From a virus: DNA of 52,403 nt. The notes beneath the pieces are model-generated. The model did no database searches, was not told where the DNA came from, and saw nothing but the letters and a program-made list of their open reading frames with translations. The first letter of the stretch is position 1. The number at the start of each line of letters is the position of its first letter. Positions 31,388 to 46,897 of this stretch are shown in pieces. The translations under genes were made by a program, and so were the position numbers. Location of the stretch: IMG/VR virus record IMGVR_UViG_3300032782_000001, positions 1 to 52,403 of that record; one strand, 5' to 3'.

Positions 31388-31394
31388 TTTGCTG

Positions 31395-31430: not shown

Positions 31431-31444
31431 CTGGGGAGGTAACC

Positions 31445-31741: not shown

Positions 31742-31743
31742 AC

Positions 31744-32070: not shown

Positions 32071-32072
32071 AC

Positions 32073-32958: not shown

Positions 32959-33017
32959 GGTTGTAAAGCCGACAGAAATCGCCGGGCTCGGCGCGTATCA
33001 GACAGTGGAGGTGACAC

Positions 33018-33374
33018 ATGGCTCGTACGCATTCCGATCAGGCGAAGATGGCGGTGGTTCTCGACGTGATGGAGGTGTCGGATGCCTTGAAGGGCAAGTC
33101 CTTCTCCATCACCGGCCATCTCGGTCGTCCGCGCCCCGAAATCGTGGAGATCATCACGAGGGCGGGCGGTCGTTTCGAGGAGAGGCCCAAGAACCTCTGG
33201 GGTAAGGATGCCTATCTGGTCACCAACGCCGACTGGACGAAGAATTCCATCAAGGGGAAGGTCTCGTCCAAGTTCGATGAGGCCAGGCGCAACGGCATCA
33301 AGATCATCTCGGAGGACGAGCTCTACAAGATGATCATCGACAACGACCCCAACATGAAGGACGAAGCATCGTGA
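33018..33374 (+). CDS. stand-alone BRCT-domain protein
   Basis: GKSFSITGHLGRPRPEIVEIITRAGGRFEERPK...AYLVTNAD...FDEARRNGIKIISEDELYKMI matches the LigA-type BRCT pattern; GGAGGTGACAC-ATG; cassette at 32970-33017. Confidence 0.65.
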   Translation: MARTHSDQAKMAVVLDVMEVSDALKGKSFSITGHLGRPRPEIVEIITRAGGRFEERPKNLWGKDAYLVTNADWTKNSIKGKVSSKFDEARRNGIKIISEDELYKMIIDNDPNMKDEAS

Positions 33375-33745
33375 GACAATCCGATGCCGTCGCAGCAACT
33401 GTTTGCTGCTCGGTCGCCATCGGTTTCTTAGCGGGCACGTTCATCAATCTGGCAGGGAAGACCGACCGCGGCGATTTGCCTCCAGTGGCTTCGCACTTCG
33501 AAGTGCGAATCCATGTGGTCGTGGAGACTAATACCCACTACAAGAAACTGTGGGAGGAGGCTATGCGTGTCGTAGACGACTGCGTTGCTACTCCTCCGAA
33601 GAACAACCCGGTGAAGCTAGTTCTCATGGGAGACGGCGTACCGGAGAATCCTTGCGATAACGGGCGTCTTTACGGACGTCGGGACGGCAAGAAGGGCAGT
33701 TCTCTCTACATCTGCGAAGAAGGGAATTGGAGGCCAGTCAAATAA
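33371..33745 (+). CDS. small membrane-anchored protein (N-terminal TM helix)
   Basis: ORF track; GTGA overlap; perfect 10-bp palindrome AACTTGCATT-GTGAA-AATGCAAGTT downstream at about 33905-33930. Confidence 0.5.
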   Translation: MRQSDAVAATVCCSVAIGFLAGTFINLAGKTDRGDLPPVASHFEVRIHVVVETNTHYKKLWEEAMRVVDDCVATPPKNNPVKLVLMGDGVPENPCDNGRLYGRRDGKKGSSLYICEEGNWRPVK

Positions 33746-34015
33746 GCCTCAACTGACTTCCGCGAGGAGGACCGCGAGAACCCTCAACACCGCGAGGTTT
33801 GAGACTTAGAACCGGGTCAAGTCAAGAATACCGAACAACATCTACAGAGCATCGTAGGGGTCCGGTAAGTTGTTACGGCCAGCTAATTGTTGATGGCGGC
33901 CCGGTTAACTTGCATTGTGAAATGCAAGTTCCCTGTGACCTAATAAATAGTCCCAGGCGCCCGGCGTGACGTAAGTCCGCCGGGCTCGCGCGTATTCGGA
34001 TCCGGAGGTGACGTG

Positions 34016-34318
34016 ATGCGAGACACGACGCGAAGCTTCTTGATCATTGCGAAATGCGGGCGCTTCTATGCCTGGGACTACGGGTCCGGAAATACGCCCG
34101 AAGAAGCTGGAAAGGAATTCATCGGCATCCTCGAATGTGGGGGCGACATCTGGGAGACCGAAGACGGAAATCTTCCGGAATCTCTCATCAATGAGTTCTA
34201 CGAGATCATTGCTGAGGTAGACGTCACCAACCTCAGCCACGAGTCTATCGTGACTATGGCCGAATTTCTCAAGAAGATGTCTGACCTGAGCGTGGTCGAA
34301 CAGGTGATGGTGGCCTGA
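34016..34318 (+). CDS. acidic small protein, tail ...SVVEQVMVA (tail family)
   Basis: ORF track; cassette at 33968-34015. Confidence 0.55.
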   Translation: MRDTTRSFLIIAKCGRFYAWDYGSGNTPEEAGKEFIGILECGGDIWETEDGNLPESLINEFYEIIAEVDVTNLSHESIVTMAEFLKKMSDLSVVEQVMVA

Positions 34319-34368
34319 TCGACGTAAATTCAACAGGCTCGTGCGTATTGACACTCGGAGGTGATGCG

Positions 34369-34809
34369 ATGGCGCAGCGGAGCTTCGTGGATTTCCGTCT
34401 CGGACTGTCCGGTCAAGCTTGGGCAGTGCTCCATTTGTTGGATGGGGAACCGAGCTTTGCTCCATTCAACCTGACCACCCACGAGTACGAGCTCGAAATC
34501 AAGACTTCGGCCTTCTACAACGGTCGGGAACGCGGATTTGTGTTGGATGTTCAACACAGCTTCCTCGACAATCGGGATCACCTCTACGTGGTGTGCGCAA
34601 ACCAGCGTAGCTCGGACAGTCTCGTCATCTACAAGTGGACGGGTCCTCTACGCATGAACCCTCCCACTGTTGCCGACCTGACGGAACAGGTTTACAACGT
34701 TTTCTTGAACTCGCCCGAGGAAGCTGCTAAGCGCATTCGGGAGATCATCGGCGACTACTTGGACCGAGAATCGAAAGAAAAGACCGTCGCATCCGTCATG
34801 GAATCGTGA
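34369..34809 (+). CDS. hypothetical protein (146 aa), tail ...KTVASVMES (tail family)
   Basis: ORF track 34348 trimmed to Met8 after GGAGGTGATGCG; cassette at 34320-34368. Confidence 0.6.
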   Translation: MAQRSFVDFRLGLSGQAWAVLHLLDGEPSFAPFNLTTHEYELEIKTSAFYNGRERGFVLDVQHSFLDNRDHLYVVCANQRSSDSLVIYKWTGPLRMNPPTVADLTEQVYNVFLNSPEEAAKRIREIIGDYLDRESKEKTVASVMES

Positions 34810-34810
34810 A

Positions 34811-35245
34811 ATGGTCTCCGAAAAGAACAGGTGGACTCTCGATTGGGTCCGTGAGAGAGTGCGACAGAAACACCATCGCATCCTTACAAAGTATCTTTTG
34901 CGTCGCGACCAGGCTGTAGCAGACGATCACCTTGCAGCAGGATGGTCGACCGATCGCATCGTGCGAGAGGGATTCGACGTAAAAGAAGGACAGACAGCAG
35001 TGCCGCAAGCGGCAATCAAGTGCTTGAGGAATTGTTCTGACCTTGATCCTCGCGTCGTACGAGACGTTGTCTTGCAAAGCAAAGATTTCAAACAGCATTT
35101 GGCGTTTGAGGCCGCGCTGAAGAAACTGTTGTTGCCCACTACCATCGACACACGAGGCTATTCACCCGAACGTGTCTCTCTTTTGAGGGAAACATGGATC
35201 GAGATTCGGAATCGGAACACGATTCTTGAAGTCATGGAATCATGA
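34811..35245 (+). CDS. hypothetical protein (144 aa), tail ...RNTILEVMES (tail family)
   Basis: ORF track. Confidence 0.55.
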   Translation: MVSEKNRWTLDWVRERVRQKHHRILTKYLLRRDQAVADDHLAAGWSTDRIVREGFDVKEGQTAVPQAAIKCLRNCSDLDPRVVRDVVLQSKDFKQHLAFEAALKKLLLPTTIDTRGYSPERVSLLRETWIEIRNRNTILEVMES

Positions 35246-35294
35246 CCGGCGTAAATTCGATCGATTGCGACGTATTGGATCGTGGAGGTGACGA

Positions 35295-36020
35295 ATGGAC
35301 CCCGATGCGGAACGTAAGTATTCGTTCGTCGTAGACAGTGACTCGTCTGAGGAAGGAGCGCGCGATGCGCTTCTGAGTCTACGTCGTACGATTAAGCTCG
35401 GCAAGCTCGCTGAGCGCGCCCTGCTCAACATCAAGACTCACGGTCACCATAATGGCCGCGTCCTTGTCATGTCCGGCAAGCCCGGCTATGGGTCGGATAT
35501 CTCGGAGTACAGGTTCCCTCAATATATCAAACCGACGCGTGAAACGGTCCCCGGATACGGTCAATACGAAGTTATCCTCGGCAATCTTCATAACGGCATC
35601 CATGGCGATGCTGTTACGAAGGAAGTTCTCGTCATTCTGAAATGCCAGGGGTGGAGTGCAGGATCATGGGATCCGGTTCACCTCAAAGTCGGAAACGCTC
35701 GCGTCAAGACTTCTGACGAAGTGGTCTTTGTCCATGACCGAACGTGGGGACCCGACCTCCCAAACAACAGGACCATCTCCAAGCTCTACACGCGAGCCAC
35801 AACCGAGAAGGCTTTGGAAGCATACAAGGAGATCGCCGTAACTTTGGCTTGCAATATCATTCGCTTCAATCAAAATGACATCAGGAACCAATCCGTTCCT
35901 CAGGTCATCTTCGACACCCGGAAAATTCTCAGCCAGTGGCTCATCGAAGATGGTTTCATCGAGGAGTTCTGTCAACGCCTCCGCCGCACGGCACATGTGG
36001 CAATGGTAATGGATTCATGA
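35295..36020 (+). CDS. hypothetical protein (241 aa), tail ...AHVAMVMDS (tail family)
   Basis: ORF track; GGAGGTGACGA-ATG; cassette at 35247-35294. Confidence 0.6.
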   Translation: MDPDAERKYSFVVDSDSSEEGARDALLSLRRTIKLGKLAERALLNIKTHGHHNGRVLVMSGKPGYGSDISEYRFPQYIKPTRETVPGYGQYEVILGNLHNGIHGDAVTKEVLVILKCQGWSAGSWDPVHLKVGNARVKTSDEVVFVHDRTWGPDLPNNRTISKLYTRATTEKALEAYKEIAVTLACNIIRFNQNDIRNQSVPQVIFDTRKILSQWLIEDGFIEEFCQRLRRTAHVAMVMDS

Positions 36021-36310
36021 AACCGATACACAAACTCCACGGTCCTCGCCTAGAACGTCGTCAAGCCGAGAATCGGAAGTCGCTTCACAAGTTTCTGTCC
36101 AAACAACATCGGCCGATCCGTCGATATTTGACGGATGTATCCCCGGAACTTCTCTTCAAGGTCATCCGGTTCTTTGCATTGCATCCGGACCTGGCTTCTT
36201 CTTTCTCCGATTTCGTGAAGGAGGAGAAGCAACTCGTTAAAGATCTGGACGTGGAAGACGTAAAACACGTCCAGATGCTCATCATCGTGGAAGAAGTTCA
36301 GGAGTCCTGA
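36017..36310 (+). CDS. hypothetical protein (97 aa), tail ...IIVEEVQES
   Basis: ORF track 35936 trimmed to Met28 (ATGA overlap). Confidence 0.5.
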   Translation: MKPIHKLHGPRLERRQAENRKSLHKFLSKQHRPIRRYLTDVSPELLFKVIRFFALHPDLASSFSDFVKEEKQLVKDLDVEDVKHVQMLIIVEEVQES

Positions 36311-36311
36311 A

Positions 36312-36599
36312 ATGTCAGACGTCCCGAAACCAATCCGAAATGCGTGGAAGCGGATCAAGCAGGCTTGGGAATCCAGCCGCATCCACAGGCAAAGTCAACC
36401 GGGCGTCTGGACAATCTTCCATGTCGGAAAGAGGACTTATCGTTGTACGCAAACTGGCCTGAATACCATCGAGATCCAGTTTTTCGACAGCGGTGCCTTC
36501 AAGCAAGAAGTAGCCGGTCGTCTTCCGGAGAAGATCGATCTGCACGGCCTCCAGAAGGCTTTGGACCTTCTGGAGGTCGAACGTGTGATGACTGCCTAA
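36312..36599 (+). CDS. hypothetical protein (95 aa), tail ...LLEVERVMTA
   Basis: ORF track. Confidence 0.5.
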   Translation: MSDVPKPIRNAWKRIKQAWESSRIHRQSQPGVWTIFHVGKRTYRCTQTGLNTIEIQFFDSGAFKQEVAGRLPEKIDLHGLQKALDLLEVERVMTA

Positions 36600-36862
36600 G
36601 CAGCGTGCGCTTCCAGCCCGATGGCCTTCTTCATCGCCTTGGTCATCCAAGGAGCAGAGGCCAGATATGCCTGGAGTGCTTCGTTACTCGGCAGGTCCTT
36701 CACCTTACCTTCGCCCTTGATGATAGAGAGCACGATGCTATGAATCCTAGCATCATGTCCAGGTGCGAACCTGGAGCTCGTCTGCGCCTTGCAGCCACAG
36801 AGACAATGCTTGGAAGTCGCCTTGGTCGCAGTGACCTTGGTCGCAGTCTTCTTGGTCTTCAT
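36596..36862 (-). CDS. basic Cys/His protein (88 aa; MKTKKTATKVTATKATSKHCLCGC...), possible DNA-binding
   Basis: ORF track trimmed to Met18 after GGGAGGAAATACCCAT; convergent with upstream plus genes. Confidence 0.45.
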   Translation of the reverse strand: MKTKKTATKVTATKATSKHCLCGCKAQTSSRFAPGHDARIHSIVLSIIKGEGKVKDLPSNEALQAYLASAPWMTKAMKKAIGLEAHAA

Positions 36863-36943
36863 ATGGGTATTTCCTCCCTTGAGGAAACTAAACCCATCTT
36901 GGAATTCGCACAAGTTCGGAGAATCCCGAACCCGACGTCGGAC

Positions 36944-37336
36944 TCACCCGAGGTCGTCCATGTCGGGCGGACCCGCCGGTGCTGGGTGTGTGCCGGCGTC
37001 GGCGGGCTCGGGCGCGGGCTCGGCGCCCAGCTCCTCCTCACCTCGCGCCTCCTCGATCGACCCCGCCAGCTCCGCCGCCTCTTCGGCAAGCTTCTCAAGC
37101 GCTGCCTTTCCGAAAATGACTTTGAAAGCTTCGGCGTCCACTTCTTGAGCCGTGTCAACCCGAGTCACCTTTTGGACGTCGAAGGTCTCCACTGAACATT
37201 CTACTTCGTATTCTACGGCCTCTCCCGATCCATCAGCTAGGACAGCCATAACCTTCACCTCGGAAGGTGCGCCAGTCTCAGCCGCACGACGCGACTTGGC
37301 GGCGAGGATGTCCCTAGCGATCTTCAGGAAATTCAT
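36944..37336 (-). CDS. hypothetical protein with acidic Pro/Ala-rich C-terminus (130 aa)
   Basis: ORF track. Confidence 0.5.
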   Translation of the reverse strand: MNFLKIARDILAAKSRRAAETGAPSEVKVMAVLADGSGEAVEYEVECSVETFDVQKVTRVDTAQEVDAEAFKVIFGKAALEKLAEEAAELAGSIEEARGEEELGAEPAPEPADAGTHPAPAGPPDMDDLG

Positions 37337-37409
37337 ACTCCTTGAAGGTTACCAAAGTCTTAGACTGGCTTCAAGGATTCCCTGTATTTGCTATCCCAGG
37401 CGTGAGGTT

Positions 37410-37661
37410 TCATGATTCCATGACCTCTTGAACGACGGCCTCTTCCAGTGACATGACGACGTAAGTCCTCGGGAAGATGAAGTCCCCGGCGCACAATCGA
37501 CACACGGGATATGCCTTCTTTTGGGATGCGTTGAATAACGCGGAATGAACTTGTCTTGGACAATCGAATCCGAACCGGACCTCAGTATAACTGATCGAAT
37601 TGAATTCGCGGACTTCATGAAGGCTCGGGTGAGCGCATTTCATGTGGTCTTGAATGGACAT
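37410..37661 (-). CDS. Cys-rich small protein, tail ...LEEAVVQEVMES (tail family)
   Basis: ORF track trimmed to Met30, 4 nt after the upstream TGA. Confidence 0.5.
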   Translation of the reverse strand: MSIQDHMKCAHPSLHEVREFNSISYTEVRFGFDCPRQVHSALFNASQKKAYPVCRLCAGDFIFPRTYVVMSLEEAVVQEVMES

Positions 37662-37665
37662 GGAG

Positions 37666-37935
37666 TCATGACTCCATGACTTCTCGGACGAGAGCTTCCT
37701 CCGGATCCATTGGGGTAAATAGACTACCGAGAATAGCAGACTTGTCACATTGGAAACAGAGGAAATATGCCTTCTTTTCTTCTTCGTGGTATACGGCTGA
37801 GAACACAGGGTTGTAGCAACCGGAAAGCATCCTGATCCTGTTATGGATCACGGTTGGTTGACAACACTTCAGATGGTGAAGCCGACGCTTCTGAATCCTG
37901 ACGCACTCCTTTTCAGACTTTCCTACGAGTTCCAT
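37666..37935 (-). CDS. Cys-rich small protein, tail ...PEEALVREVMES (tail family)
   Basis: ORF track 37666..38244 trimmed to Met104; the track N-terminus is junk-like. Confidence 0.5.
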   Translation of the reverse strand: MELVGKSEKECVRIQKRRLHHLKCCQPTVIHNRIRMLSGCYNPVFSAVYHEEEKKAYFLCFQCDKSAILGSLFTPMDPEEALVREVMES

Positions 37936-37972
37936 CTGAGTGGTTGCCTCCGTAGATGACAATCTCAAATAA

Positions 37973-38443
37973 CTAGGATTCGTGGACGTCCCGACATTTA
38001 TTGAGTTGACACTCCGTCCCATGTCCTGGGTTGGCATGACGGTTCTTGTTCTCAGCGTGTCGCCCACACCGAGGGCAAATACCGCTTTTGTTGATGCCCC
38101 TCTTCCCGAACCGACGGTAACTCGTCGACGGAACATTCGGCCTCGTTGCAGGTGGAGGGGACTGCCGGCGAATGATATAGGTCGTTCCAACCAATCGGAG
38201 GTGCTCGTAATGCACCAATTCTTCGATGGTGGCTTCAGCGTCATTCATGCTTGCCGTTGGCCAAGCTTGCTGGAGAATGAAGAACACTTGCTCCGTGGAG
38301 ATCTTCTCGATGTGACTCCATCGCGAATCCCCGAATGTGGAGAATCCAAGACCCTTGGGTCGAGCGTGCTTGCCGAATGGATCGACCGTGCACATGATGA
38401 GAGCCGGCATGTCCGTTCGATGCGACTCCTTTCGAAATTCCAT
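37973..38443 (-). CDS. zinc-ribbon protein (CX2CX18CX4C), tail ...KCRDVHES; tandem paralog of 38445..38945
   Basis: shared C-terminus GICPRCG..NKNRHAN.GHGTEC.LN; ORF track. Confidence 0.55.
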   Translation of the reverse strand: MEFRKESHRTDMPALIMCTVDPFGKHARPKGLGFSTFGDSRWSHIEKISTEQVFFILQQAWPTASMNDAEATIEELVHYEHLRLVGTTYIIRRQSPPPATRPNVPSTSYRRFGKRGINKSGICPRCGRHAENKNRHANPGHGTECQLNKCRDVHES

Positions 38444-38444
38444 A

Positions 38445-38945
38445 CTAGCTCTCCATCACCTGCCTAACGCGATTCAATTTGCACTCCGTCCCATGCCCCG
38501 AATTTGCATGACGGTTCTTGTTTTTGGAATATTCACCGCATCGGGGACAAATTCCGGCGTGCGGATTTTGACTGTTGTATCGAGATGGGATCAACGGAGT
38601 TTCTGGGAGATCCGGGAGACTGAAGGCCCGGAAACTGTCTTCTCGAAGGAACCCCTCTGCAAGAAGGATTTCGACGGTGGACTGGACTTCCTCTTGGGAG
38701 ATCTTCTCCCATTTCTCTTCCAAAACCTTGGTGATTTCGGCGAGAGTGACCTTCGAAAGCCGAGCTCGTCGCATCCTTTCATCTTCACGCCTGAGATTTT
38801 CTTCCCAGGGCAGGCGCATTTTGTTTGTCTCTCGATACCTGGCACGACGCTGCGCCGCGGTCGGCCGGAAGGTTACACGAACGTGCTCCGGCATGTCAAA
38901 CTGATGCTGAAGTTTGCGAAAAGCCACAACATCCTCACAATACAC
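38445..38945 (-). CDS. zinc-ribbon protein, tail ...NRVRQVMES; tandem paralog of 37973..38443
   Basis: ORF track; GTG start right after the hairpin CCCGGA..TCCGGG at about 38950-38971. Confidence 0.5.
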   Translation of the reverse strand: MYCEDVVAFRKLQHQFDMPEHVRVTFRPTAAQRRARYRETNKMRLPWEENLRREDERMRRARLSKVTLAEITKVLEEKWEKISQEEVQSTVEILLAEGFLREDSFRAFSLPDLPETPLIPSRYNSQNPHAGICPRCGEYSKNKNRHANSGHGTECKLNRVRQVMES

Positions 38946-38988
38946 GAGAGCCCGGAAGATTTGGCCTCCGGGCTCTCGGGAAGTGGAA

Positions 38989-40059
38989 CTACTTGGTGGA
39001 CTTCACGGTCACCCGGACGCAACCCTTCGGCGTCTTGGCGAAATAGTCCTTGTAGTGCCGAAGGAGCAGGTTCCAAATGATCCGCTTGTGCGTCTCTTGC
39101 TCGCCGGTCGTCGGGTCACGACCCATCAGAGGGCGCTGCTCCTCCCGCACCTCACTCCCGATGTCCACCCGGACAATCTTGTGGAGGGGAACGACCGTCG
39201 CGCGCAGCGGCTTGCTGAAGAAGGCACCCTGGAGGTACTTCAGGGAGTTCGTGAACTGCCACTTCCAATCGGCCTTCTTGCACCAGATCTCGACCGAGCC
39301 GGGGTATTTCTCCGACTCCTTGATCTCGACGACGCAGAGGCTCTCGCGCAGGAGGGAGGCCAGCATCCTGTAGCCGAGGCTCTCGATGGCGTCGGTGCAC
39401 GCCTTGTGGACCTCGCTCTTGCGATTGAGGCTGCAGACGCGGACCAGACCGTTGACCATGCCCCGAATGCCCTGCGGCTTGTAATTCTGGACCAGGAACT
39501 CCACGAGTTCCGGGTACTCCGCCAGATCGATCATGGCCTGCATCTCGTCGCCGTCCTTCGGCTCCTCGAAGTAGCCCTTCTTGCTGCAGATCGGCCCGAG
39601 ACCGCGCTCCACGGACTCGGAGTCCGTCAGCTTCAGCGCGCAGTGGGCGCAATGCGTGCACACGCCCTCGAGGATGAGCTGCCCATGGCGCTGCTTCTGC
39701 TTCAGGACGCCGCCGACGATGCCGTTCTGGGGCAGGTTCAACTGCGCCATCTGCGAGACCAGGACGGGCTTGGGGCCGCTTTCGGGCGCGGGCTCCTCCT
39801 TCGCGGGGTTGCCATCGTTCGACTCGGACGGGTACTCGTCCCGAGCCGAATCCGGCTCGGAATCCATCTCGGCCTGGTAAGCCGCTCGCTCTTGCTCGGC
39901 CTCCTGGCGACCGAATTCGTTCTTCATCGCGATCCAATCTTGCGCTGCTTGATCCATCGTGTCACCTCCATCGTCCGATACGCCGGGAGGCGCCGAATTT
40001 GCGGCTCGCCTGTCGGCTTCTTCTTCAATGCGAAGGAGGAATTCCTTGAGTTTGCTCAT
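38989..40059 (-). CDS. hypothetical Cys/His-containing protein; two candidate starts (40059 coupled by ATGA overlap, or 39957 after the in-frame cassette)
   Basis: ORF track; the cassette (GCAAATTCG..CGTATCGG..GGAGGTGACACG-ATG) lies in-frame at 39958-40015 and encodes ...AANSAPPGVSDDGGDT-M. Confidence 0.55.
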   Translation of the reverse strand: MSKLKEFLLRIEEEADRRAANSAPPGVSDDGGDTMDQAAQDWIAMKNEFGRQEAEQERAAYQAEMDSEPDSARDEYPSESNDGNPAKEEPAPESGPKPVLVSQMAQLNLPQNGIVGGVLKQKQRHGQLILEGVCTHCAHCALKLTDSESVERGLGPICSKKGYFEEPKDGDEMQAMIDLAEYPELVEFLVQNYKPQGIRGMVNGLVRVCSLNRKSEVHKACTDAIESLGYRMLASLLRESLCVVEIKESEKYPGSVEIWCKKADWKWQFTNSLKYLQGAFFSKPLRATVVPLHKIVRVDIGSEVREEQRPLMGRDPTTGEQETHKRIIWNLLLRHYKDYFAKTPKGCVRVTVKSTK

Positions 40060-40745: not shown

Positions 40746-40892
40746 TCCTTACCCTCCATCCGGTCTATACGCCGGGAGGCGCCGGATTTGCGGCTCGCCT
40801 GTTGGACTCTTCAATTCGAATTCTTTGAATTTCCCCAAAGCGGTGTACGCTGGGATTAGCTCATCTGCGAAAATTTCAAGTCAAAGGCGATC

Positions 40893-41723
40893 ATGGCGAA
40901 GATTGACGACATTTTGAAAGAAATTCAAAAAAATTTCGATAAAAGTATTTTTGGACCCCCTGAACCTGGATCGCTCCGACTGGGAAGGAAACCAATGGTT
41001 TCTACCTACGAAGCCATGCAACCATTGGTTCAAGTTCGGTCTAACTGGGATGCCTTTGTCAGTTTTATTCGGAAAGCAGAAGTAGTCGTCAGGGCACCCA
41101 AGTTTCTCAGGAAATCTAAAGGTATTTATTATGGCCACATCAACGTTGGAACCGGACGAGGGATTTTTCCTCAAGTGTTCTTGAAAGTCGGGACTAATGA
41201 AATCCAAGTCCCAACTCCAACTAGCCTTGACACATCCTTGATGCGTTCCGATAAATTGGTTGTCTACCAACTACCGGGGATTGGATGGCTTCATGGATGC
41301 AAGCTCCAGTTGGGTCACATTCCGGAAGGTGTCAGCGGCGACCATAAACAGAAGATTTGCGAACTTCTCGTTGAAGATTGTGGGGAGGAGAAATATGCGT
41401 CCTTGAAGGCGCGGATTCAGTTCGAATGGGATGCGGTTCAAAAGAATGCCGATGAGCTAATGAAGGCCCACCTTTCAGGCAGTCAGTCTCATAAAGAACG
41501 GGATAGCTTCGTAACGAAGCTATCCAACCTTTTAGCAAAAAGTCCAGATCTAATTGAAGTCGACCCTGACGTTGTATTGACCATCTTCCAAATGGATCCG
41601 AAGGAATTGGAAAAGATGATCGGATTTATGAAGCGGAATGTGGCAGATATTGACGTGATCGTAGAAGAGGATGTGAAGAAAGCCCAAGACTTGGCGAAAG
41701 TGCAATCTGTCATGGAGAGTTGA
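40893..41723 (+). CDS. hypothetical protein (276 aa), AT-richer gene, tail ...KVQSVMES (tail family)
   Basis: ORF track; no cassette; palindromic AATTCGAATT in the divergent intergenic region. Confidence 0.55.
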   Translation: MAKIDDILKEIQKNFDKSIFGPPEPGSLRLGRKPMVSTYEAMQPLVQVRSNWDAFVSFIRKAEVVVRAPKFLRKSKGIYYGHINVGTGRGIFPQVFLKVGTNEIQVPTPTSLDTSLMRSDKLVVYQLPGIGWLHGCKLQLGHIPEGVSGDHKQKICELLVEDCGEEKYASLKARIQFEWDAVQKNADELMKAHLSGSQSHKERDSFVTKLSNLLAKSPDLIEVDPDVVLTIFQMDPKELEKMIGFMKRNVADIDVIVEEDVKKAQDLAKVQSVMES

Positions 41724-41788
41724 AGATAATATGACAACACGGCGCAAATTCATCTGATCACGGCGTATCGGCCGGTGGAGGTGACGCC

Positions 41789-42097
41789 ATGATGAATTCC
41801 GAGCAGATGGTGAACACGTTGAAGAACGTCCCTGAGGGAGCGCTCCTCTTCGTCAGTTACATCGCCGGCCGTGAGCCCACCGAGCGCGCCATCCAGGAGG
41901 CGAAGCCTCACACGGAGAACCCTGCGCGCAGTCGACGCCACTTCGTCGGCACCCTTTCGCGCGTCTGGACTGCCCGCAACGGTGACCCCATTCTCACTAT
42001 TCACGCACACAACCGCAACACGGGCGACAAAGCCGGGGGTTACCGGTCTTTCAATCCGAGCCTCGGTCAACTGCTCGCCGTGCAGGTTCTCTCATGA
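41789..42097 (+). CDS. hypothetical protein (102 aa)
   Basis: ORF track; GGAGGTGACGCC-ATG; cassette at 41738-41788. Confidence 0.6.
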   Translation: MMNSEQMVNTLKNVPEGALLFVSYIAGREPTERAIQEAKPHTENPARSRRHFVGTLSRVWTARNGDPILTIHAHNRNTGDKAGGYRSFNPSLGQLLAVQVLS

Positions 42098-42480
42098 AAT
42101 TCATCCGCCAACAGGTCAGTGATAAGGGAATCGTTACGGACTTCTACTGGAAGACGTGGCGGCATCACAAGATCATCGTGGCATTCGAGTATGAGCTCTC
42201 ATGCGATGCCCACTGGGATGGCGACGAACCTATTCCTGATCATTACGAGTGCTACGATATCCTCGTGAAGGCCAGGTTCCAAGGTCACGAAGGAACTGCC
42301 AGTCTCTGCAATAGTTGGATTGATCCACGCACGGAAGGTCGGCGCGGCTCCAACTATCTCTATACTGTGGCCTGCGACCTCCTGGAGGAAGCTATCCACG
42401 AAATGGGAAAAAAGCTCATCCAGAGCGGTCACGTCTGCAAGAACAAACTCTGCATCGTCGAGTCCGTTCACGAATCTTAA
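42094..42480 (+). CDS. Cys-rich hypothetical protein (128 aa), tail ...CIVESVHES
   Basis: ORF track; ATGA overlap; 7-bp hairpin downstream. Confidence 0.55.
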   Translation: MKFIRQQVSDKGIVTDFYWKTWRHHKIIVAFEYELSCDAHWDGDEPIPDHYECYDILVKARFQGHEGTASLCNSWIDPRTEGRRGSNYLYTVACDLLEEAIHEMGKKLIQSGHVCKNKLCIVESVHES

Positions 42481-42627
42481 TAGGACCCGGCCAGTAGAGT
42501 CCTTCATGGGACTCTGGACGATCTATTGTCATACTGTATGTCGGGTTGACAAAACAAACTTTGGCGAAGAGGTGGAAGAACCACGTCAACGCAGCCAAGT
42601 TGTCCAAAGGACGATGGCATTTCCCGA

Positions 42628-42852
42628 ATGCCATTCGAAAATATGGAGATGTGGCGTTCTCGCATGAAGTGCTGCTTCACGCTTTGTCCCCGAGATGCTT
42701 GTCTGGTCTTTCATGACTCAAATCATGAGTGGCCTATGTGCAAAGAGCACGAGGAAGAAGGAGAAAAGGACCTGAAAGCTCAATTTGAGGACAATCCTAT
42801 TCAGGTTATTTCCGGTCCTGAATTTCTTGTTTGGGAAGTCATGGAGTCATGA
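42628..42852 (+). CDS. Cys-rich small protein, tail ...PEFLVWEVMES (tail family)
   Basis: ORF track. Confidence 0.55.
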   Translation: MPFENMEMWRSRMKCCFTLCPRDACLVFHDSNHEWPMCKEHEEEGEKDLKAQFEDNPIQVISGPEFLVWEVMES

Positions 42853-42853
42853 A

Positions 42854-43063
42854 GTGAAATGCGGATTCGGAACCGAGAAGGACCCGGAATTCTCTTGCCC
42901 AAAAGCAGCCACTGTCGGGTTGCAATCTCGAACGCATAGAAATCACATTTTTATTCGTTGCAAAGAGCACTCCCTGGAACTTATCCTTCGGGGATTGTAC
43001 GACGTCATCGACCTGGAAGATGCCGAAAATTTCACTGTCGTCTATGAGATCATGAAGTCCTGA
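42854..43063 (+). CDS. Cys-rich small protein (GTG start), tail ...FTVVYEIMKS (tail family)
   Basis: ORF track 42785 trimmed to the GTG just after the upstream stop. Confidence 0.45.
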   Translation: MKCGFGTEKDPEFSCPKAATVGLQSRTHRNHIFIRCKEHSLELILRGLYDVIDLEDAENFTVVYEIMKS

Positions 43064-43139
43064 TCTGTTGTAAATTCTGCAAGGCCCGTCGGATCCGCAA
43101 ATTCGGCGGGCCGCGACGTATCTGGATCTGGAGGTGACT

Positions 43140-44084
43140 GTGCGCGATCTATCGAGGCTCAGGTATTTGCTTAGGTGGGCCCAACTCAATAAGACCTTCG
43201 AAAGGGTCCCGGCCAGTGGAATCCATGTTCCGCTTCGCGACAGTGTGACCCGGTATCAAATCCCAGTGGCCGGGGCCGAATTCCGTCGTGTGAACAATCC
43301 GCACGGGAATCCCGTCGCCAAGCTCCTCGTGGGCTCTCAGGAGATCCAGATCGGAGCCGAGGGATTGGACGACGCCGAGAAGCTGGAAATTGCCCTGGAA
43401 ACTCTCTTCCAGGAGAGGCCGCCAGTGTGGGAATCTCCAGATCTTTCGGACGCCATTCAGCAGGCGTTGTCCCACGCTCGACGAGATGACGTCAAATCCC
43501 GTTTCAATAAGGTCGTCACCGGTCCCATGGACACCGATGAATATACCCATTGGATGAATTTCACCCTTGGTTTGGCTGAGGGGGAGTGTTCGAAAGAATC
43601 TCGAACGGAAATGGTCCTGGGCCATTACATCACCACGACTTATATCTTCAAAGGAACGGAAGCTCAAGCCATTTCCAGCTTGGAAGGACTCCGCGACGTC
43701 AAGCGAATGCCGACTCCGCGTCGTGTGCTCGTCAAAATGGTGCATCTCCGGATGTCGAAGATGCGCAAGGAAGTGGAAGAAGAGAACAATCGTCGGAGGA
43801 AGCAAAGGGCCGAAGACGCATTGCAAGCCAGCCTTCCTCCCAATGATCCGAACAAGCAGAAGAATTACCACCCTAGTGGTAAACCCGACGTCATTATTGG
43901 AGATCTGGATAACCGCGCCAATTGCAAGATGTCAGCATCCAAAGCCAACTATGACGCTGGGTACTGGACCATCCGGCGGGAAGCTGAAAACCTGATGAAA
44001 TGTCTGCAGCGAGAAGACATTGACGATAGCATTATTCACGATGCTTGGAAATTGTATCTCGTCGGCGATGTGATGCAATCATAA
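43140..44084 (+). CDS. hypothetical protein (about 314 aa), tail ...LVGDVMQS (tail family)
   Basis: ORF track; cassette at 43085-43139; start GTG ambiguous (43134 or 43140). Confidence 0.6.
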   Translation: MRDLSRLRYLLRWAQLNKTFERVPASGIHVPLRDSVTRYQIPVAGAEFRRVNNPHGNPVAKLLVGSQEIQIGAEGLDDAEKLEIALETLFQERPPVWESPDLSDAIQQALSHARRDDVKSRFNKVVTGPMDTDEYTHWMNFTLGLAEGECSKESRTEMVLGHYITTTYIFKGTEAQAISSLEGLRDVKRMPTPRRVLVKMVHLRMSKMRKEVEEENNRRRKQRAEDALQASLPPNDPNKQKNYHPSGKPDVIIGDLDNRANCKMSASKANYDAGYWTIRREAENLMKCLQREDIDDSIIHDAWKLYLVGDVMQS

Positions 44085-44085
44085 C

Positions 44086-44112
44086 TGGCAGGGGTTTACT
44101 AAACCCCTGCCA
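44086..44112. repeat. TGGCAGGGG hairpin family member (TGGCAGGGGTTTA-C-TAAACCCCTGCCA)
   Basis: read directly; intergenic. Confidence 0.7.
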
Positions 44113-44128
44113 CATATCTGGAGAAATT

Positions 44129-44581
44129 ATGTACGGGAGTGGCTCTTCCAATGAGCAGATGAATACGTTGCTGGCCGAGCGCATCTTCAAGTGGTTGCTC
44201 GACCGTGGTGATTTCATTGAATGGCTGGACCGCCAGCTCATGGACCAAGGATTGGAACTCTTCGCTCAATTGGACTCTCTCACCGCCATGGATGTTGGCC
44301 GAGTCCTTCTCGGCATGCCCGAATGGATTAAAACGAGGTACCGGACCGTTGGAGGTGGTGGCTCCGACGTCCCAACTTTCTTCACGGAGCGCGTGAAGGA
44401 AGAAGTGGCGAAAGATTCCTTCCTCGAGTCATGTGTTGGTAAGTCCGTCCCTGTGACCGCCGCCTGTTTGTCGATGGTCGGTGAGGCTGTCAAACGGACG
44501 AGGTTCTACACGGAGAATGCAACCGAGATGCGACGTCGGATCCGCCATACTAAGGTTGTCCGCCACGTCATGGACTCATGA
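44129..44581 (+). CDS. hypothetical protein (150 aa), tail ...KVVRHVMDS (tail family)
   Basis: ORF track 44045 trimmed to Met29 after TGGAGAAATT. Confidence 0.55.
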   Translation: MYGSGSSNEQMNTLLAERIFKWLLDRGDFIEWLDRQLMDQGLELFAQLDSLTAMDVGRVLLGMPEWIKTRYRTVGGGGSDVPTFFTERVKEEVAKDSFLESCVGKSVPVTAACLSMVGEAVKRTRFYTENATEMRRRIRHTKVVRHVMDS

Positions 44582-44919
44582 GCGTACTTTCCCTCGTGAG
44601 CAATCCATTCCAAAGCCTCGACGAGGCCTGTACGCGAGTTCTTGAACACCTATTTCCGGAGAACAACCGGACTGAAATCGTCATGGACTTATCCTATGAT
44701 GAGCAGGAACTCCTCAAGAGTGGCTGGGTCCGAGGTCTCAACGATTGGTGGCGTCATCCTGATGCTCCACTGGATGAGAGCATGAGTCTCTTCTTTGCGA
44801 AGAAGGTGCAAAGGAAGATCGCTCAGTACGACATGCGGAAAGACCAGGAATGGCGGAAAGACTACACGTCCTACCGCATGGCCGTGTCTTCAGTCCACTT
44901 CGACACCTTTACTGACTAA
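44578..44919 (+). CDS. hypothetical protein (113 aa)
   Basis: ORF track; ATGA overlap. Confidence 0.55.
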   Translation: MSVLSLVSNPFQSLDEACTRVLEHLFPENNRTEIVMDLSYDEQELLKSGWVRGLNDWWRHPDAPLDESMSLFFAKKVQRKIAQYDMRKDQEWRKDYTSYRMAVSSVHFDTFTD

Positions 44920-45016
44920 ACACCCCGCTTTCAAACAGACCGAAAGGCCCCGATAGAGCATGCCGTGGCGGCGTAAATTCCCATCGATCGGCCGTACCGA
45001 TCGGTGGAGGTGACAC

Positions 45017-46285
45017 GTGTCCGATCTCATCGAAGGTCAGATCCAATACGTCCAAGGGAGTGGGAAGAAGCCTTATGAGCTCCAGCTCAAAGGCGGCGTC
45101 TACAGCTGCTCTTGCATGGCTTGGCGCAACCAGAGCATCCCCATCAACAAGAGGACGTGCAAGCATCTCAAAATGGTGCGCGGAGACGCCGCCGAACAAG
45201 TGCGCGTCTCCGGAACTTTCCATCAAGCCGGCGTCACGTCGGGCCGCATTCAAACGGCAGTTCCCAACCAGACCAAGCCGCCACGCACCGACCCTGATTA
45301 TGAATTCACGCCGCAAGAAGACGGCCGCATCCCGATCATGACGTCGGACGAGTACGTGGCGGCGCAGCGACAGGCATTGACCCTTCTTGCAGAAGGGTCC
45401 TTTCGGGACAAGGAGTCCGTTCTCGCAGACGCCGAGCTGAAGGCCGGTCGCAAGCTTCGCCCCGACGAGAAGACCAAGCTCTTCGGGCCGCCCGTGCTCC
45501 TCGCGCATCCGTTCGAGGACGCCGAGGGCGTGGACCCGACGGGCTGGTGGATGTCCGAGAAGCTGGATGGGGTGCGCGCTTACTGGGACGGCAAGCAGTT
45601 CCTCTCGCGCCAGGGCAATGTCTTCCACGCGCCAGATTGGTTCAAGGCGGGTCTGCCGGACCATCCGCTCGATGGCGAACTCTGGACGGACCGTCGATCC
45701 TTCCAGCAGACCATCAGCATCGTCAAGTCGATTGATGCGGGTGAGAGGTGGAAGGCCATCAAGTACATGGTCTTCGATCTCCCGCACCTGACCACGCATT
45801 TCGAGCACCGGTACGAGCAGCTCGACAATCTCATGCTCGCCTCCACGAGCAAAGTGCTCAAGATGGTACAGCAGCGCTCATGCACGAGTCTGAACGACCT
45901 CAAGCAGGAACTCGAAAGGGTCGTCAAGCTTGGAGCCGAAGGGCTCATGATCCGCAAGCCCAAAAGCATGTACGAAGCGGGCCGAAGTTGGTCCATCCTG
46001 AAGGTGAAGCCATGGCGTGATTCCGAAGCCACCGTCGTTGGCTATGAGGCCGGAAAGGGTCGTCACAAGGGCAGGACGGGCGGGCTTATCGTCCGGCTCG
46101 ATGTCCCCTTCACCGACCCTCGTCTGAAGCGCGGCGCTGAATTCAATATCGGCACGGGCCTCTCGGACGAAGACCGCCGCAACCCTCCGGCCATTGGGAA
46201 GGTAGTCACGTTCCGCTACATGGACACCACCGATGCGGGGGTCCCGAAGGGCGCCAGCTTCGTCTCAGTGCGGGATTACGAATGA
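45017..46285 (+). CDS. ATP-dependent DNA ligase with N-terminal SWIM-type zinc finger
   Basis: SWIM-like CSCMAWRNQ...CKHL; ligase motif I EKLDGVRAY, motif III LDGELW, motif V EGLMIRKP..ILKVK; GGAGGTGACAC-GTG; cassette at 44955-45016. Confidence 0.8.
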   Translation: MSDLIEGQIQYVQGSGKKPYELQLKGGVYSCSCMAWRNQSIPINKRTCKHLKMVRGDAAEQVRVSGTFHQAGVTSGRIQTAVPNQTKPPRTDPDYEFTPQEDGRIPIMTSDEYVAAQRQALTLLAEGSFRDKESVLADAELKAGRKLRPDEKTKLFGPPVLLAHPFEDAEGVDPTGWWMSEKLDGVRAYWDGKQFLSRQGNVFHAPDWFKAGLPDHPLDGELWTDRRSFQQTISIVKSIDAGERWKAIKYMVFDLPHLTTHFEHRYEQLDNLMLASTSKVLKMVQQRSCTSLNDLKQELERVVKLGAEGLMIRKPKSMYEAGRSWSILKVKPWRDSEATVVGYEAGKGRHKGRTGGLIVRLDVPFTDPRLKRGAEFNIGTGLSDEDRRNPPAIGKVVTFRYMDTTDAGVPKGASFVSVRDYE

Positions 46286-46664: not shown

Positions 46665-46897
46665 AAGCGATTGCTCCCGAGAGCCTCACGGAGTCTCTCA
46701 ACGAGATCATCTCTACATGCATTCACGGACCTGGAGGTGACCCTGACCGTTGCCATATGAGGGCCGCCGCTAAAGCATTCGTCCTCCTGCGGCGCATGGG
46801 ACTCCCCATCCATGGGGAGGAGGATTATGAAGATCAGCTGAGGAAGTGCAATGCCTCGGAAGTTGACTTCCTGGCAGAAGAAGGGCTCCCCGAATGA
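46661..46897 (+). CDS. hypothetical protein (78 aa)
   Basis: ORF track 46586 trimmed to Met26 (ATGA overlap). Confidence 0.5.
   Translation: MKAIAPESLTESLNEIISTCIHGPGGDPDRCHMRAAAKAFVLLRRMGLPIHGEEDYEDQLRKCNASEVDFLAEEGLPE

What the first reader, a model, noticed from the sequence alone, without database searches (positions are those of the whole stretch)
33018..46285. SWIM-type zinc finger fused to an ATP-dependent DNA ligase, plus a stand-alone BRCT protein
ORF 45017-46285 has canonical nucleotidyltransferase motifs (KLDGVR, DGELW, EGLMIRKP) preceded by a CxC...CxH SWIM-like finger. BRCT is normally a C-terminal module of NAD-dependent ligases. Here it is a separate 118-aa gene 12 kb away (33018-33374) with its own cassette.

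This suggests an unusual split or alternative targeting of the ligase, for example to modified or nicked DNA.
Basis: partly seen in the sequence, partly recalled or inferred. Interest (0 to 1): 0.55.

Follow-up and report, generated by a model that had tools for sequence, protein, structure and literature searches.

The report
Zinc-finger DNA ligase plus separate BRCT gene
A large phage-like genome encodes an ordinary ATP-dependent DNA ligase from a widespread but little-described family carrying a small SWIM-like zinc module, and separately a small BRCT protein predicted to bind DNA ends. The two genes travel together in one group of huge phages, but nothing shows they are halves of a split enzyme.

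Summary
Both ORFs exist as described. ORF 45017-46285 is a complete ATP-dependent DNA ligase with a Lig E-type NTase+OB_2 core and intact motifs I, III, IIIa, IV and V. Its N-terminal 65 aa carry an invariant CxC...CxH pattern.

The N-terminal module resembles SWIM but does not reach Pfam's cut-off. Relatives score 9-15.5 bits against a 19.6-bit threshold, and the window copy gives no hit. Six of the top eight Foldseek matches among viral structures are SWIM-type proteins.

The fusion is not unusual. All 120 best database relatives have it, and at least 544 loci in Planctomycetota, Myxococcota (including M. xanthus) and Verrucomicrobiota encode it. Half of the 80 loci examined add a C-terminal WGR domain.

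ORF 33018-33374 is a true stand-alone BRCT of the LigA/RFC1/PARP1 class. It keeps the T-G-R-K 5'-phosphate pocket.

BRCT and ligase share a contig in 13 of 18 informative cases, all huge-phage-like. Spacing is 4-38 kb, and order and strand vary. The ligase family mostly lacks any BRCT, and the BRCT's steadiest neighbours are other genes.

A "split ligase" is not supported, and cooperation in trans stays untested. I file it as a new member of a known kind, of moderate interest.

The parts
45004..45016 (+). Strong Shine-Dalgarno-containing leader GTGGAGGTGACAC directly before the ligase start codon
   Evidence: The exact 13-mer occurs only here and before the BRCT gene. With up to 2 mismatches there are 11 sites against 1.2 expected, lying before several conserved genes, so it is a general strong ribosome-binding consensus.
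45017..46285 (+). ATP-dependent DNA ligase gene, 422 aa: SWIM-like module, tether, helical segment, NTase and OB_2 core
45017..45211 (+). N-terminal SWIM-like zinc module (aa 1-65). Predicted ligands are C31, C33, C48 and H50 (nt 45107-45166).
   Evidence: G14, S15, P19, Y20, C31, C33, W36, C48, K49 and H50 are invariant in 42 relatives. AF2 gives pLDDT 88.6 alone and 88-96 in the full-length model, with a beta-beta-beta-alpha...alpha layout. Pfam SWIM is hit in 27 of 42 relatives but below the cut-off. Foldseek against BFVD puts SWIM-type proteins at ranks 1, 2, 3, 5, 6 and 8.
45218..45292 (+). Disordered P/T/Q-rich tether (aa 68-92). It is the core of a linker whose length varies across the family.
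   Evidence: pLDDT is below 50 for residues 68-92. Alignment occupancy is low, and the distance from CxH to KxDG ranges from 54 to 200 aa in relatives.
45344..45484 (+). Helical segment (aa 110-156) that includes the conserved basic motif GRKLRPDEK (aa 144-152, nt 45446-45472)
   Evidence: Helices at 110-125, 129-143 and 149-156. L147, R148, D150, E151 and K152 are at least 90% conserved. The motif is present in most long-linker relatives and absent from the Myxococcota copies.
45488..46276 (+). Lig E-type catalytic core (aa 158-420). NTase motifs are I (K182), III, IIIa, IV and V, followed by OB_2.
   Evidence: pLDDT exceeds 90.
33005..33017 (+). Identical Shine-Dalgarno-containing leader GTGGAGGTGACAC before the BRCT start codon
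33018..33374 (+). Stand-alone single-BRCT protein, 118 aa, of the LigA/RFC1/PARP1 class. Predicted phosphate pocket is T32, G33, R39 and K85.
   Evidence: Pfam BRCT is above its cut-off. The family profile hits the LigA BRCT 1l7b at E 1.8e-11 and the RFC1 BRCT 2ebu/2k6g at about 2e-9. The pocket residues are invariant in 35 relatives. The equivalent Rfc1 residues bind a 5' phosphate (PMC9359705).

Best explanation
These are two separate, individually ordinary DNA-metabolism genes in the early or replication region of a huge-phage-like element. They are not a split enzyme.

(1) ORF 45017-46285 is a cytoplasmic ATP-dependent DNA ligase.
- Its Lig E-type NTase+OB_2 core performs the standard three-step nick sealing: adenylation of K182, AMP transfer to the 5' phosphate, then attack by the 3' OH. 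This is shown by homology.
- Minimal Lig E-type cores lack a dedicated DNA-binding domain. This family has instead acquired an N-terminal Zn(Cys3His) SWIM-like module on a flexible tether of variable length, plus a short basic helical segment.
- I infer that this appendage increases affinity for, or recruitment to, nicked or broken DNA. That would parallel the N-terminal zinc finger of ligase III and the WGR domain that half of the examined cellular homologs add at the C-terminus.
- Alternatively, it docks the ligase onto a partner protein.

(2) ORF 33018-33374 is a stand-alone BRCT of the LigA/RFC1/PARP1 subclass with an intact T-G-R-K phosphate pocket. I infer that it binds 5'-phosphorylated DNA ends, nicks or gaps, or possibly a phosphoprotein.

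The BRCT belongs to a conserved gene block: AAA_5 ATPase, DUF2201, BRCT, a 241-aa ORF, DUF6011, and further on the ligase. This block is found in one clade of huge phages. Co-residence with the ligase reflects this shared block, and direct cooperation is possible but unproven.
For: Ligase identity and intact motifs.

No signal peptide: the N-terminus is hydrophilic, with a maximum 12-aa Kyte-Doolittle mean of 0.76.

The module is invariant in all 120 best relatives.

The module tracks ligases:
- It is fused to a Lig E-type core in 79 of 80 cellular loci.
- It is fused to a Lig E-type core in 23 of 23 strong viral loci.
- It is also fused to a different, diverged ATP-ligase in L108-L111.
- 39 of the 80 cellular copies add a WGR domain.

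SWIM likeness.

Architecture (confident module, disordered tether, helices, core).

BRCT class and pocket: with PMC9359705 read.

Conserved block and variable BRCT-ligase geometry.

Huge-phage context:
- The identical BRCT protein lies on a 436-kb contig.
- Related IMG/VR contigs are 193-527 kb.
- PHROG hits occur on neighbouring genes.
Against: - The window's own module has no Pfam SWIM hit, and relatives stay below the 19.6-bit cut-off.
- PDB fold searches found nothing.
- The BFVD matches have weak E-values, 0.012 to 0.5.
- Zinc binding and DNA binding by either module are inferred only.
- No model coordinates were available, so I could not check the ligand geometry.
- The high same-contig co-occurrence (13 of 18), and the exact identity of the 13-nt leader only at these two genes, leave room for a functional link that I could not test.
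- Only 52 kb of an element of at least 102 kb was visible, so other ligases or partners may exist.
Confidence: 0.6

Rival explanations
1. Trans-acting pair. The BRCT protein is a non-covalent subunit of the SWIM-ligase. BRCT binds the 5'-phosphate at a nick and hands it to the ligase, possibly by contacting the SWIM module. Together they would recreate a LigA- or Lig III-like ZnF+BRCT enzyme from separate genes.
For: - The two genes share a contig in 13 of 18 informative BRCT contigs.
- The BRCT is of the ligase/RFC1 DNA-end-binding class.
- The exact 13-nt leader occurs only before these two genes.
- In LigA, the BRCT enhances nick joining (PMC10386641).
Against: - The two genes are never adjacent. 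Spacing is 4-38 kb, with both orders and both relative orientations.
- None of 80 cellular loci has this BRCT within 3 kb, and most viral SWIM-ligase loci lack it within 10 kb.
- BRCT loci L152, L153 and L158 show no ligase within 10 kb.
- The steadiest neighbours of the BRCT are DUF2201, DUF6011 and the 241-aa ORF.
- The leader is a general ribosome-binding consensus with 11 sites in the window.
- Co-occurrence is confounded by shared ancestry within one phage clade.
Confidence: 0.15
2. The BRCT works with its immediate conserved neighbours (the 241-aa ORF, the MoxR-like AAA_5 plus DUF2201 pair, and DUF6011) in a process unrelated to the ligase. One example would be marking or protecting phage DNA ends or replication intermediates.
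For: - A homolog of ORF 35295-36020 was found in 18 of 48 BRCT loci and starts right at the BRCT stop in several of them (L135, L136, L137, L152, L158).
- DUF2201 lies 2-4 kb upstream in 25 of 48 loci, and DUF6011 is nearby in 24 of 48. Most remaining loci are too short to tell.
Against: None of these neighbours has an assignable function. In the window itself the 241-aa ORF lies 1.9 kb downstream and is not adjacent.
Confidence: 0.2
3. The BRCT is a host-directed decoy that mimics the C-terminal BRCT of host LigA. It would compete for 5'-phosphate ends or for LigA partners, inhibiting host repair or shielding phage DNA ends from host nucleases.
For: - The closest sequence relatives are LigA BRCT domains.
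- A precedent exists for stand-alone ligase accessory domains in jumbo phages that are proposed to engage host ligase (PMC7824862).
Against: There is no direct evidence. The family carries a roughly 10-aa insertion (TNxDW...) that LigA and RFC1 lack, so it is not a close mimic.
Confidence: 0.1
4. The N-terminal module is not a DNA-binding SWIM finger but a protein-interaction or regulatory zinc knuckle. It would tether the ligase to a replisome or repair partner such as a clamp or polymerase.
For: - SWIM domains are described as mediating either DNA or protein contacts (general knowledge of the family, not tested here).
- The module sits on a long flexible tether, as recruitment modules often do.
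- Formal Pfam membership is not met.
Against: - The module is fused to ligases of two different lineages and is often paired with WGR, a nucleic-acid-binding domain.
- It is conserved from Myxococcota to phages, which have very different replisomes.
Confidence: 0.3

Closest known systems
Lig E minimal ATP-dependent DNA ligases (Psychromonas 4d05, Alteromonas 6gdr, Neisseria gonorrhoeae 8u6x; NCBIfam PRK09125)
   Same: Both have the NTase + OB_2 two-domain core, with all catalytic motifs and no large alpha-helical DNA-binding domain. Matches are E 8e-61 to 2e-51 over residues 158-419 and 321 bits to PRK09125.
   Different: Canonical Lig E has an N-terminal periplasmic signal peptide, no appended domains, and a proteobacterial distribution (PMC8455567). 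This protein has a hydrophilic N-terminus bearing a zinc module, a tether and a helical segment. It is phage-borne, with cellular relatives in Planctomycetota, Myxococcota and Verrucomicrobiota.
Bacterial 'NT-OB_2(-WGR)' ligases, also described as the 'leader-less Lig E cluster c' of Myxococcales (Williamson and co-workers, PMC7470946 and PMC8455567), e.g. M. xanthus DK1622 Q1DEP0
   Same: This is the same family. It shares the invariant N-terminal CxC...CxH module and the same core, and 79 of 80 cellular loci have the fusion.
   Different: The phage copy lacks WGR and has a much longer tether: 131 aa between CxH and KxDG, against about 60-70 aa in Myxococcota. It also has the GRKLRxDEK helix, which the Myxococcota copies lack. 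The cited papers do not mention the zinc module.
Human DNA ligase III-alpha (N-terminal zinc finger as nick sensor, C-terminal BRCT)
   Same: The logic is analogous: an ATP-dependent ligase core combined with a zinc finger, and a BRCT present in the same system.
   Different: The Lig III finger is PARP-type, not SWIM-like, and no zf-PARP hit was found here. The Lig III BRCT is fused to the enzyme and binds XRCC1 (PMC10386641). Here the BRCT is a separate gene of the LigA/RFC1 class. This is an analogy only, not membership.
BRCT domains of NAD-dependent LigA (1l7b, 1dgs) and of RFC1 (2ebu, 2k6g/2k7f)
   Same: These are the best sequence matches (E 1.8e-11 to 1e-7). The aligned T-G...R...K residues, which in Rfc1 hold a 5' phosphate, are conserved.
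   Different: Here the BRCT is stand-alone at 118 aa. It has an invariant N-terminal MAR...VMEV segment and a roughly 10-aa insertion after the third strand (TNxDW...), and it is not attached to any enzyme.
Stand-alone ligase DNA-binding domain in subgroup 2.1 jumbo phages (Iyer et al. 2021, PMC7824862)
   Same: This is a precedent for a ligase accessory domain encoded as a separate phage gene.
   Different: That case involves the alpha-helical DBD in phages that lack any ligase, and it is proposed to recruit a host ligase. Here the domain is a BRCT and the phage has its own ligase.

Membership tests
ATP-dependent DNA ligase (covalent nucleotidyltransferase superfamily) | Motif I KxDGxR with the adenylated lysine, plus motifs III, IIIa, IV and V in order | tested here: met
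   KLDGVR 182-187, DGELW 219-223, YMVFD 250-254, EGLMIR 308-313, LKVK 328-331. K182, D184, G185, R187, D219, G220, E221, E308, G309, K329 and K331 are invariant in 54 relatives.
ATP-dependent DNA ligase (covalent nucleotidyltransferase superfamily) | Pfam adenylation domain and OB domain above their gathering scores | tested here: met
   PF01068 scores 50.9 bits (cut-off 26.2) and PF14743 scores 75.5 bits (cut-off 28).
ATP-dependent DNA ligase (covalent nucleotidyltransferase superfamily) | Nick-sealing activity with ATP | not testable with these tools
   Requires biochemistry.
Lig E (sensu Williamson et al.) | Minimal NTase + OB_2 core closely related to characterised Lig E enzymes | tested here: met
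   PRK09125 scores 321 bits against a cut-off of 200. 4d05 matches at E 8e-61.
Lig E (sensu Williamson et al.) | N-terminal periplasmic signal peptide | tested here: not met
   The N-terminus MSDLIEGQIQYVQGSGKK... is hydrophilic, with a maximum 12-aa Kyte-Doolittle mean of 0.76. It is occupied by the zinc module. No dedicated signal-peptide predictor was available.
Lig E (sensu Williamson et al.) | No appended domains | tested here: not met
   A 157-aa N-terminal extension contains a folded module and helices.
SWIM zinc finger (Pfam PF04434) | CxCxnCxH signature | tested here: met
   C31-x-C33-x14-C48-x-H50 is present in the window copy. The pattern is present in all 120 relatives and invariant in the 42-sequence alignment.
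SWIM zinc finger (Pfam PF04434) | Score at or above the Pfam gathering threshold (19.6 bits) | tested here: not met
   The window copy gives no hit at E<=10. 27 of 42 relatives hit SWIM, with a best E of 0.0053. In ten relatives examined individually the hits scored 9.2-15.5 bits over the metal-ligand core, profile positions 9-30 of 38.
SWIM zinc finger (Pfam PF04434) | Fold similarity to recognised SWIM domains | tested here: inconclusive
SWIM zinc finger (Pfam PF04434) | Zinc binding | not testable with these tools
   Requires metal analysis.
BRCT domain (PF00533), LigA/RFC1/PARP1 single-BRCT subclass | Pfam BRCT above its gathering score | tested here: met
   39.3 bits against a cut-off of 21.3, covering profile positions 3-78 of 78.
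BRCT domain (PF00533), LigA/RFC1/PARP1 single-BRCT subclass | Closest to the LigA, RFC1 and PARP1 BRCTs, with a conserved T-G...R...K phosphate site | tested here: met
   PDB profile hits are 1l7b, 2ebu, 2k6g, 1dgs, then TopBP1 and PARP1. T32, G33, R39 and K85 are invariant. The role of the equivalent residues comes from PMC9359705.
BRCT domain (PF00533), LigA/RFC1/PARP1 single-BRCT subclass | Binding of 5'-phosphorylated DNA ends | not testable with these tools
   Requires EMSA or fluorescence anisotropy.
NAD-dependent DNA ligase LigA (as the supposed parent of a 'split') | NAD-type adenylation domain with Ia, OB, Zn and HhH domains somewhere in the pair | tested here: not met
   The ligase is ATP-type. 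LigA models match only the BRCT ORF, at 11.5-16.6 bits against cut-offs of 369-1051, and only over their C-terminal BRCT region. No ORF in the window other than the AAA_5, DUF2201, DUF6011 and ligase ORFs (plus one overlapping, likely spurious ORF) is long enough to encode a LigA core.

The most novel reading that the evidence does not exclude
The SWIM-like module, the C-terminal WGR of cellular homologs and the separately encoded LigA/RFC1-type BRCT together form a prokaryotic or phage counterpart of the PARP1/Lig III break-sensing toolkit (zinc finger + BRCT + WGR), built around a minimal ligase. In this huge-phage clade the BRCT protein would act in trans. It would capture the 5'-phosphate at a nick or gap and deliver it to the tethered SWIM-ligase.
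Probability: 0.12. Interest if true: 0.6.

Novelty: new member of a known kind. Interest (0 to 1): 0.35.

Why it matters
How Lig E-type ligases engage DNA without a DNA-binding domain is an active question in the ligase field. The cytoplasmic 'leader-less' and NT-OB_2-WGR relatives have no assigned role.

Essentially all members of that large family examined here, including the *M. xanthus* copy and those of many huge phages, carry a conserved Cys3His module on a flexible tether. This gives a concrete, testable candidate for their DNA-targeting or partner-targeting element.

The small stand-alone BRCT family, with its intact 5'-phosphate pocket, is a compact candidate DNA-end binder from phages.

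Neither gene changes current concepts. The specific 'split ligase' idea is not supported.

Tried and rejected
- **Pfam on the N-terminus alone** (73 and 166 aa) gave no SWIM hit.
- **A profile of the module against PDB sequences** gave only chance-level hits, such as uL4 and C2H2 linkers.
- **The afdb50 library** was unavailable.
- **PHROGs on the module** gave no meaningful family.
- **Database names**, checked as an independent SWIM test, were uninformative. RefSeq and UniRef members are called only 'DNA ligase'.
- **Literature searches** for SWIM with DNA ligase or WGR, and for phage BRCT, returned nothing relevant.
- **The shared 13-nt leader** was considered as a co-regulation signal and rejected.
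- **The BRCT neighbours** (241-aa ORF, DUF6011 protein and others) gave no Pfam, PHROG or PDB assignment.
- **A zinc-site geometry check** was not possible, because model coordinates are not exposed.

Full report
**Observation**

Both ORFs exist exactly where stated: 45017-46285 (+, GTG start, 422 aa) and 33018-33374 (+, ATG start, 118 aa). The larger protein matches several ligase models:
- Pfam DNA_ligase_A_M (residues 172-331) and DNA_ligase_OB_2 (346-419), both above their gathering scores.
- PHROG 114, 'ATP-dependent DNA ligase', E 2.6e-60.
- NCBIfam PRK09125, 321 bits against a cut-off of 200, over residues 155-420.

Its best solved relatives are the Lig E enzymes 4d05, 6gdr and 8u6x, at E 8e-61 to 2e-51. 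The nucleotidyltransferase motifs are intact: KLDGVR 182-187, DGELW 219-223, YMVFD 250-254, EGLMIR 308-313 and LKVK 328-331. Their key residues are invariant in 54 relatives. The small protein matches Pfam BRCT at 39.3 bits against a cut-off of 21.3.

**The N-terminal module**

Residues 31-50 read CSCMAWRNQSIPINKRTCKH, a CxC-x14-CxH pattern. All 120 best database relatives carry the same block, G....qGSg.KPYeLKN.gG.v.SCsCPaWRNq...id.rTCKHl. In an alignment of 42 copies, G14, S15, P19, Y20, C31, C33, W36, C48, K49 and H50 are invariant.

Is it SWIM? The evidence is mixed.
- Against: the window copy gives no Pfam hit, even alone at E<=10.
- For: SWIM (PF04434) is by far the commonest family hit among relatives, at 27 of 42 with a best E of 0.0053. 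The next families have 2 hits each.
- Limit: in ten relatives examined individually, the hits align the metal-ligand core to profile positions 9-30 of 38. They score only 9.2-15.5 bits against the 19.6-bit cut-off.

AlphaFold2 models the module confidently (pLDDT 88.6) as three strands, a short helix and two further helices. PDB sequence and fold searches were uninformative. Foldseek against predicted viral structures was more helpful. Proteins that UniProt names 'SWIM-type' sit at ranks 1, 2, 3, 5, 6 and 8, with probability 0.85-1.00, TM 0.51-0.60 and 21-28% identity. The E-values are weak, at 0.012-0.5.

I conclude that this is a SWIM-like Cys3His module. That is probable homology, but formal Pfam membership is not met.

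**How common is the fusion?**

It is very common.
The best 80 come from Planctomycetota (Gemmata, Paludisphaera, Pirellulales), Myxococcota (*Myxococcus xanthus*, Archangium, Corallococcus, Pyxidicoccus), Verrucomicrobiota and others.
- In 79 of those 80 loci the module is followed, after a short linker, by the Lig E-type core. 39 of them add a C-terminal WGR domain.
- RefSeq and UniRef call these proteins simply 'DNA ligase', for example *M. xanthus* DK1622 Q1DEP0 / ABF91525.1.

The ligase literature knows this group under two names. One is the NT-OB_2-WGR cluster of delta-proteobacteria and Planctomycetia (PMC7470946). The other is the 'leader-less' Myxococcales cluster within the Lig E network (PMC8455567). 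Neither paper mentions a zinc or SWIM module, and full-text searches found no description of one.

In IMG/VR, 23 of 23 strong hits have the same fusion, on contigs of 20-527 kb. Four weaker hits (L108-L111) carry a CTCPAWRNQ...CPH module fused to a different, diverged ATP-ligase with motifs KMDGHR, DGEFV, EGAILKR and LKVK. The module therefore tracks ligases across lineages, which argues that it serves the ligase reaction or its targeting.

**Architecture of the window's protein**

The full-length model has pLDDT 87.5. It shows four parts:
- a confident module, residues 1-65;
- a disordered P/T/Q-rich stretch, residues 68-92, with pLDDT below 50;
- helices at 110-125, 129-143 and 149-156;
- a core with pLDDT above 90.

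The distance from CxH to KxDG varies from 54 to 200 aa among relatives, and this region is poorly occupied in the alignment. It behaves as a flexible tether. Just before the core lies a conserved basic element, GRKLRPDEK at 144-152, which is at least 90% conserved. The Myxococcota copies lack it. The N-terminus is hydrophilic and has no signal peptide. Unlike canonical periplasmic Lig E, this enzyme should therefore be cytoplasmic.

**The BRCT protein**

Only 36 relatives were found in the large protein database. All are stand-alone proteins of 102-123 aa. A further 6 viral and 41 metagenomic loci encode it.

A profile of the family hits several solved structures:
- the *Thermus* LigA BRCT (1l7b), E 1.8e-11;
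- the RFC1 BRCT (2ebu, 2k6g/2k7f), E about 2e-9;
- full-length LigA (1dgs);
- then TopBP1 and PARP1.

T32, G33, R39 and K85 are invariant. They align with the Rfc1 residues (yeast Thr166, Gly167, Arg174, Lys209) that hold a 5' phosphate. That BRCT prefers dsDNA with a recessed 5'-phosphorylated end and forms a subclass with the ligase and PARP1 BRCTs (PMC9359705).

The family also has an invariant N-terminal MAR...VMEV segment and a roughly 10-aa insertion (TNxDW...) that LigA and RFC1 lack. PHROGs already contains phage proteins with such BRCTs: phrog_3498, 3869 and 3989. I infer that this is a DNA-end, nick or gap binder, and that inference is untested.

**Are the two genes linked?**

The window is part of a 102-kb metagenomic contig. 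The identical BRCT protein also lies on a 436-kb contig. Relatives sit on IMG/VR contigs of 193-527 kb. The best GenBank phage hit for the ligase is a 485-kb uncultured phage. Neighbouring genes have PHROG hits for an ATPase, a DUF2201-type protein and a ParB-like protein. The element therefore looks like a huge phage.

Of 18 BRCT contigs with a useful view, 13 also carry the SWIM-ligase:

| Contig | Position of ligase relative to BRCT |
|---|---|
| Window | +12.0 kb, same strand |
| L003 | +7.4 kb |
| ERZ1426819 | +4.3 kb |
| L112 | +5.6 kb |
| L119, L120, L126, L127 | +7.1, +5.1, +5.8, +5.8 kb |
| Ga0326727_10001207 | about +16 kb |
| IMGVR_3300012980_000004 | about 19 kb |
| IMGVR_3300028920_000001 | about 38 kb, opposite strand |
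| L115 | 7-8 kb upstream, opposite strand |
| L116 | 5 kb upstream, same strand |

Five contigs show no ligase in view: L117, L143, L152, L153 and L158.

In the other direction, none of 80 cellular SWIM-ligase loci has this BRCT within 3 kb. Only 4 of the 23 viral SWIM-ligase contigs carry it, two within 10 kb and two further away.

The genes most consistently near the BRCT, over 48 loci many of which are short, are as follows:
- DUF2201, 25 loci;
- DUF6011, 24 loci;
- homologs of ORF 35295-36020, 18 loci, often starting at the BRCT stop;
- the ligase, only 9 loci.

The picture is one of a conserved gene block in one phage clade: AAA_5, DUF2201, BRCT, the 241-aa ORF, DUF6011 and, further on, the ligase. 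It is not an operon-like BRCT-ligase pair.

The identical 13-nt leader GTGGAGGTGACAC before both genes is a strong Shine-Dalgarno consensus. It is also found, with 1-2 mismatches, before the AAA_5, DUF2201, 241-aa and other ORFs: 11 sites against 1.2 expected.

**Interpretation**

The 'split ligase' reading fails on lineage. The catalytic gene is an ATP-dependent, Lig E-type enzyme, a family that never carries BRCT. The BRCT's relatives are the C-termini of NAD-dependent LigA. The fusion is also not unusual.

The most likely account is two independent functions.
- The ligase is a cytoplasmic nick-sealing enzyme. Its minimal core is supplemented by a tethered zinc module and, in cellular homologs, by WGR. 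I infer that the module works as a nick- or end-sensing or recruitment device, by analogy with the Lig III zinc finger and the PARP1 ZnF/WGR pair.
- The BRCT is a separate small protein that binds 5'-phosphate ends and belongs to the phage's early or replication gene block.

Trans cooperation between them cannot be excluded, and I estimate it at about 0.15. The jumbo-phage literature offers a precedent for stand-alone ligase accessory domains (PMC7824862).

**Novelty and score**

The ligase is a new phage-borne member of a known, annotated family. The zinc module on that family appears undescribed in the literature I could search, and that is the most useful by-product of this check. The BRCT is a small stand-alone family of a known subclass. 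I rate interest at 0.35.

Noticed in passing
L110 9938-11026 (+); also L108, L109, L111 (IMG/VR contigs): A 362-aa protein in which a CTCPAWRNQ...CPH module is fused to a different, diverged ATP-dependent ligase (KMDGHR, DGEFV, EGAILKR, DWLKVK). The module-ligase association therefore extends beyond the Lig E-type core.
   Followed up: partly
L094 / L095 9842-13115 (IMG/VR 3300009175_000009 and 3300025316_000590): A ligase locus broken up by mobile-looking ORFs. A truncated SWIM module plus the start of a ligase lies at 9842-10378, and an unrelated 216-aa ORF at 10474-11124. An intact 340-aa SWIM-ligase follows at 11172-12194. Last comes an ORF whose HNH-like N-terminus (CHHCDNRGC) is fused in frame to the C-terminal OB part of a ligase (12474-13115). 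This may be homing-endonuclease invasion or duplication.
   Followed up: no
window 1588-1600(-), 10726-10738(-), 16959-16971(-), 25877-25889, 29886-29898, 33005-33017, 35282-35294, 39959-39971(-), 41775-41787, 45004-45016, 46731-46743: An extended Shine-Dalgarno consensus GTGGAGGTGAC(A/G)C has 11 sites with up to 2 mismatches, against 1.2 expected. It lies directly before the starts of the conserved block genes (AAA_5, DUF2201, BRCT, the 241-aa ORF and the ligase). It suggests that these genes are strongly translated. The mechanical ORF start at 25877 is probably this motif itself, with the true start just downstream.
   Followed up: partly
window 25877-40059; L003; ERZ1426819 contig; L112-L158: A conserved gene block runs: MoxR-like AAA_5 ATPase, DUF2201 (DUF2201_N + DUF2201; its PHROG hit is labelled 'HNH endonuclease'), BRCT, the 241-aa ORF (35295-36020, no known domain), and a DUF6011 protein. 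It recurs across huge-phage contigs, and its function is unknown.
   Followed up: partly
window 33371-33374: The BRCT stop codon overlaps the GTG start of the downstream ORF 33371-33745 (GTGA), which suggests translational coupling. L003 has the same 4-nt overlap with a non-homologous 68-aa ORF.
   Followed up: no
L023 3001-3192 (MAG labelled uncultured Bifidobacteriaceae, CAYWMD010000031.1): This is the only one of the 80 cellular loci where the zinc module has no detectable ligase core downstream. It could be a stand-alone module, a different fusion or a frameshift.
   Followed up: no
window ~22000-24000: The AT skew changes sign here, and the coding strand seems to switch from mostly minus (1-22 kb) to mostly plus (23-52 kb). 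This looks like a divergent transcription point or a possible origin region.
   Followed up: no
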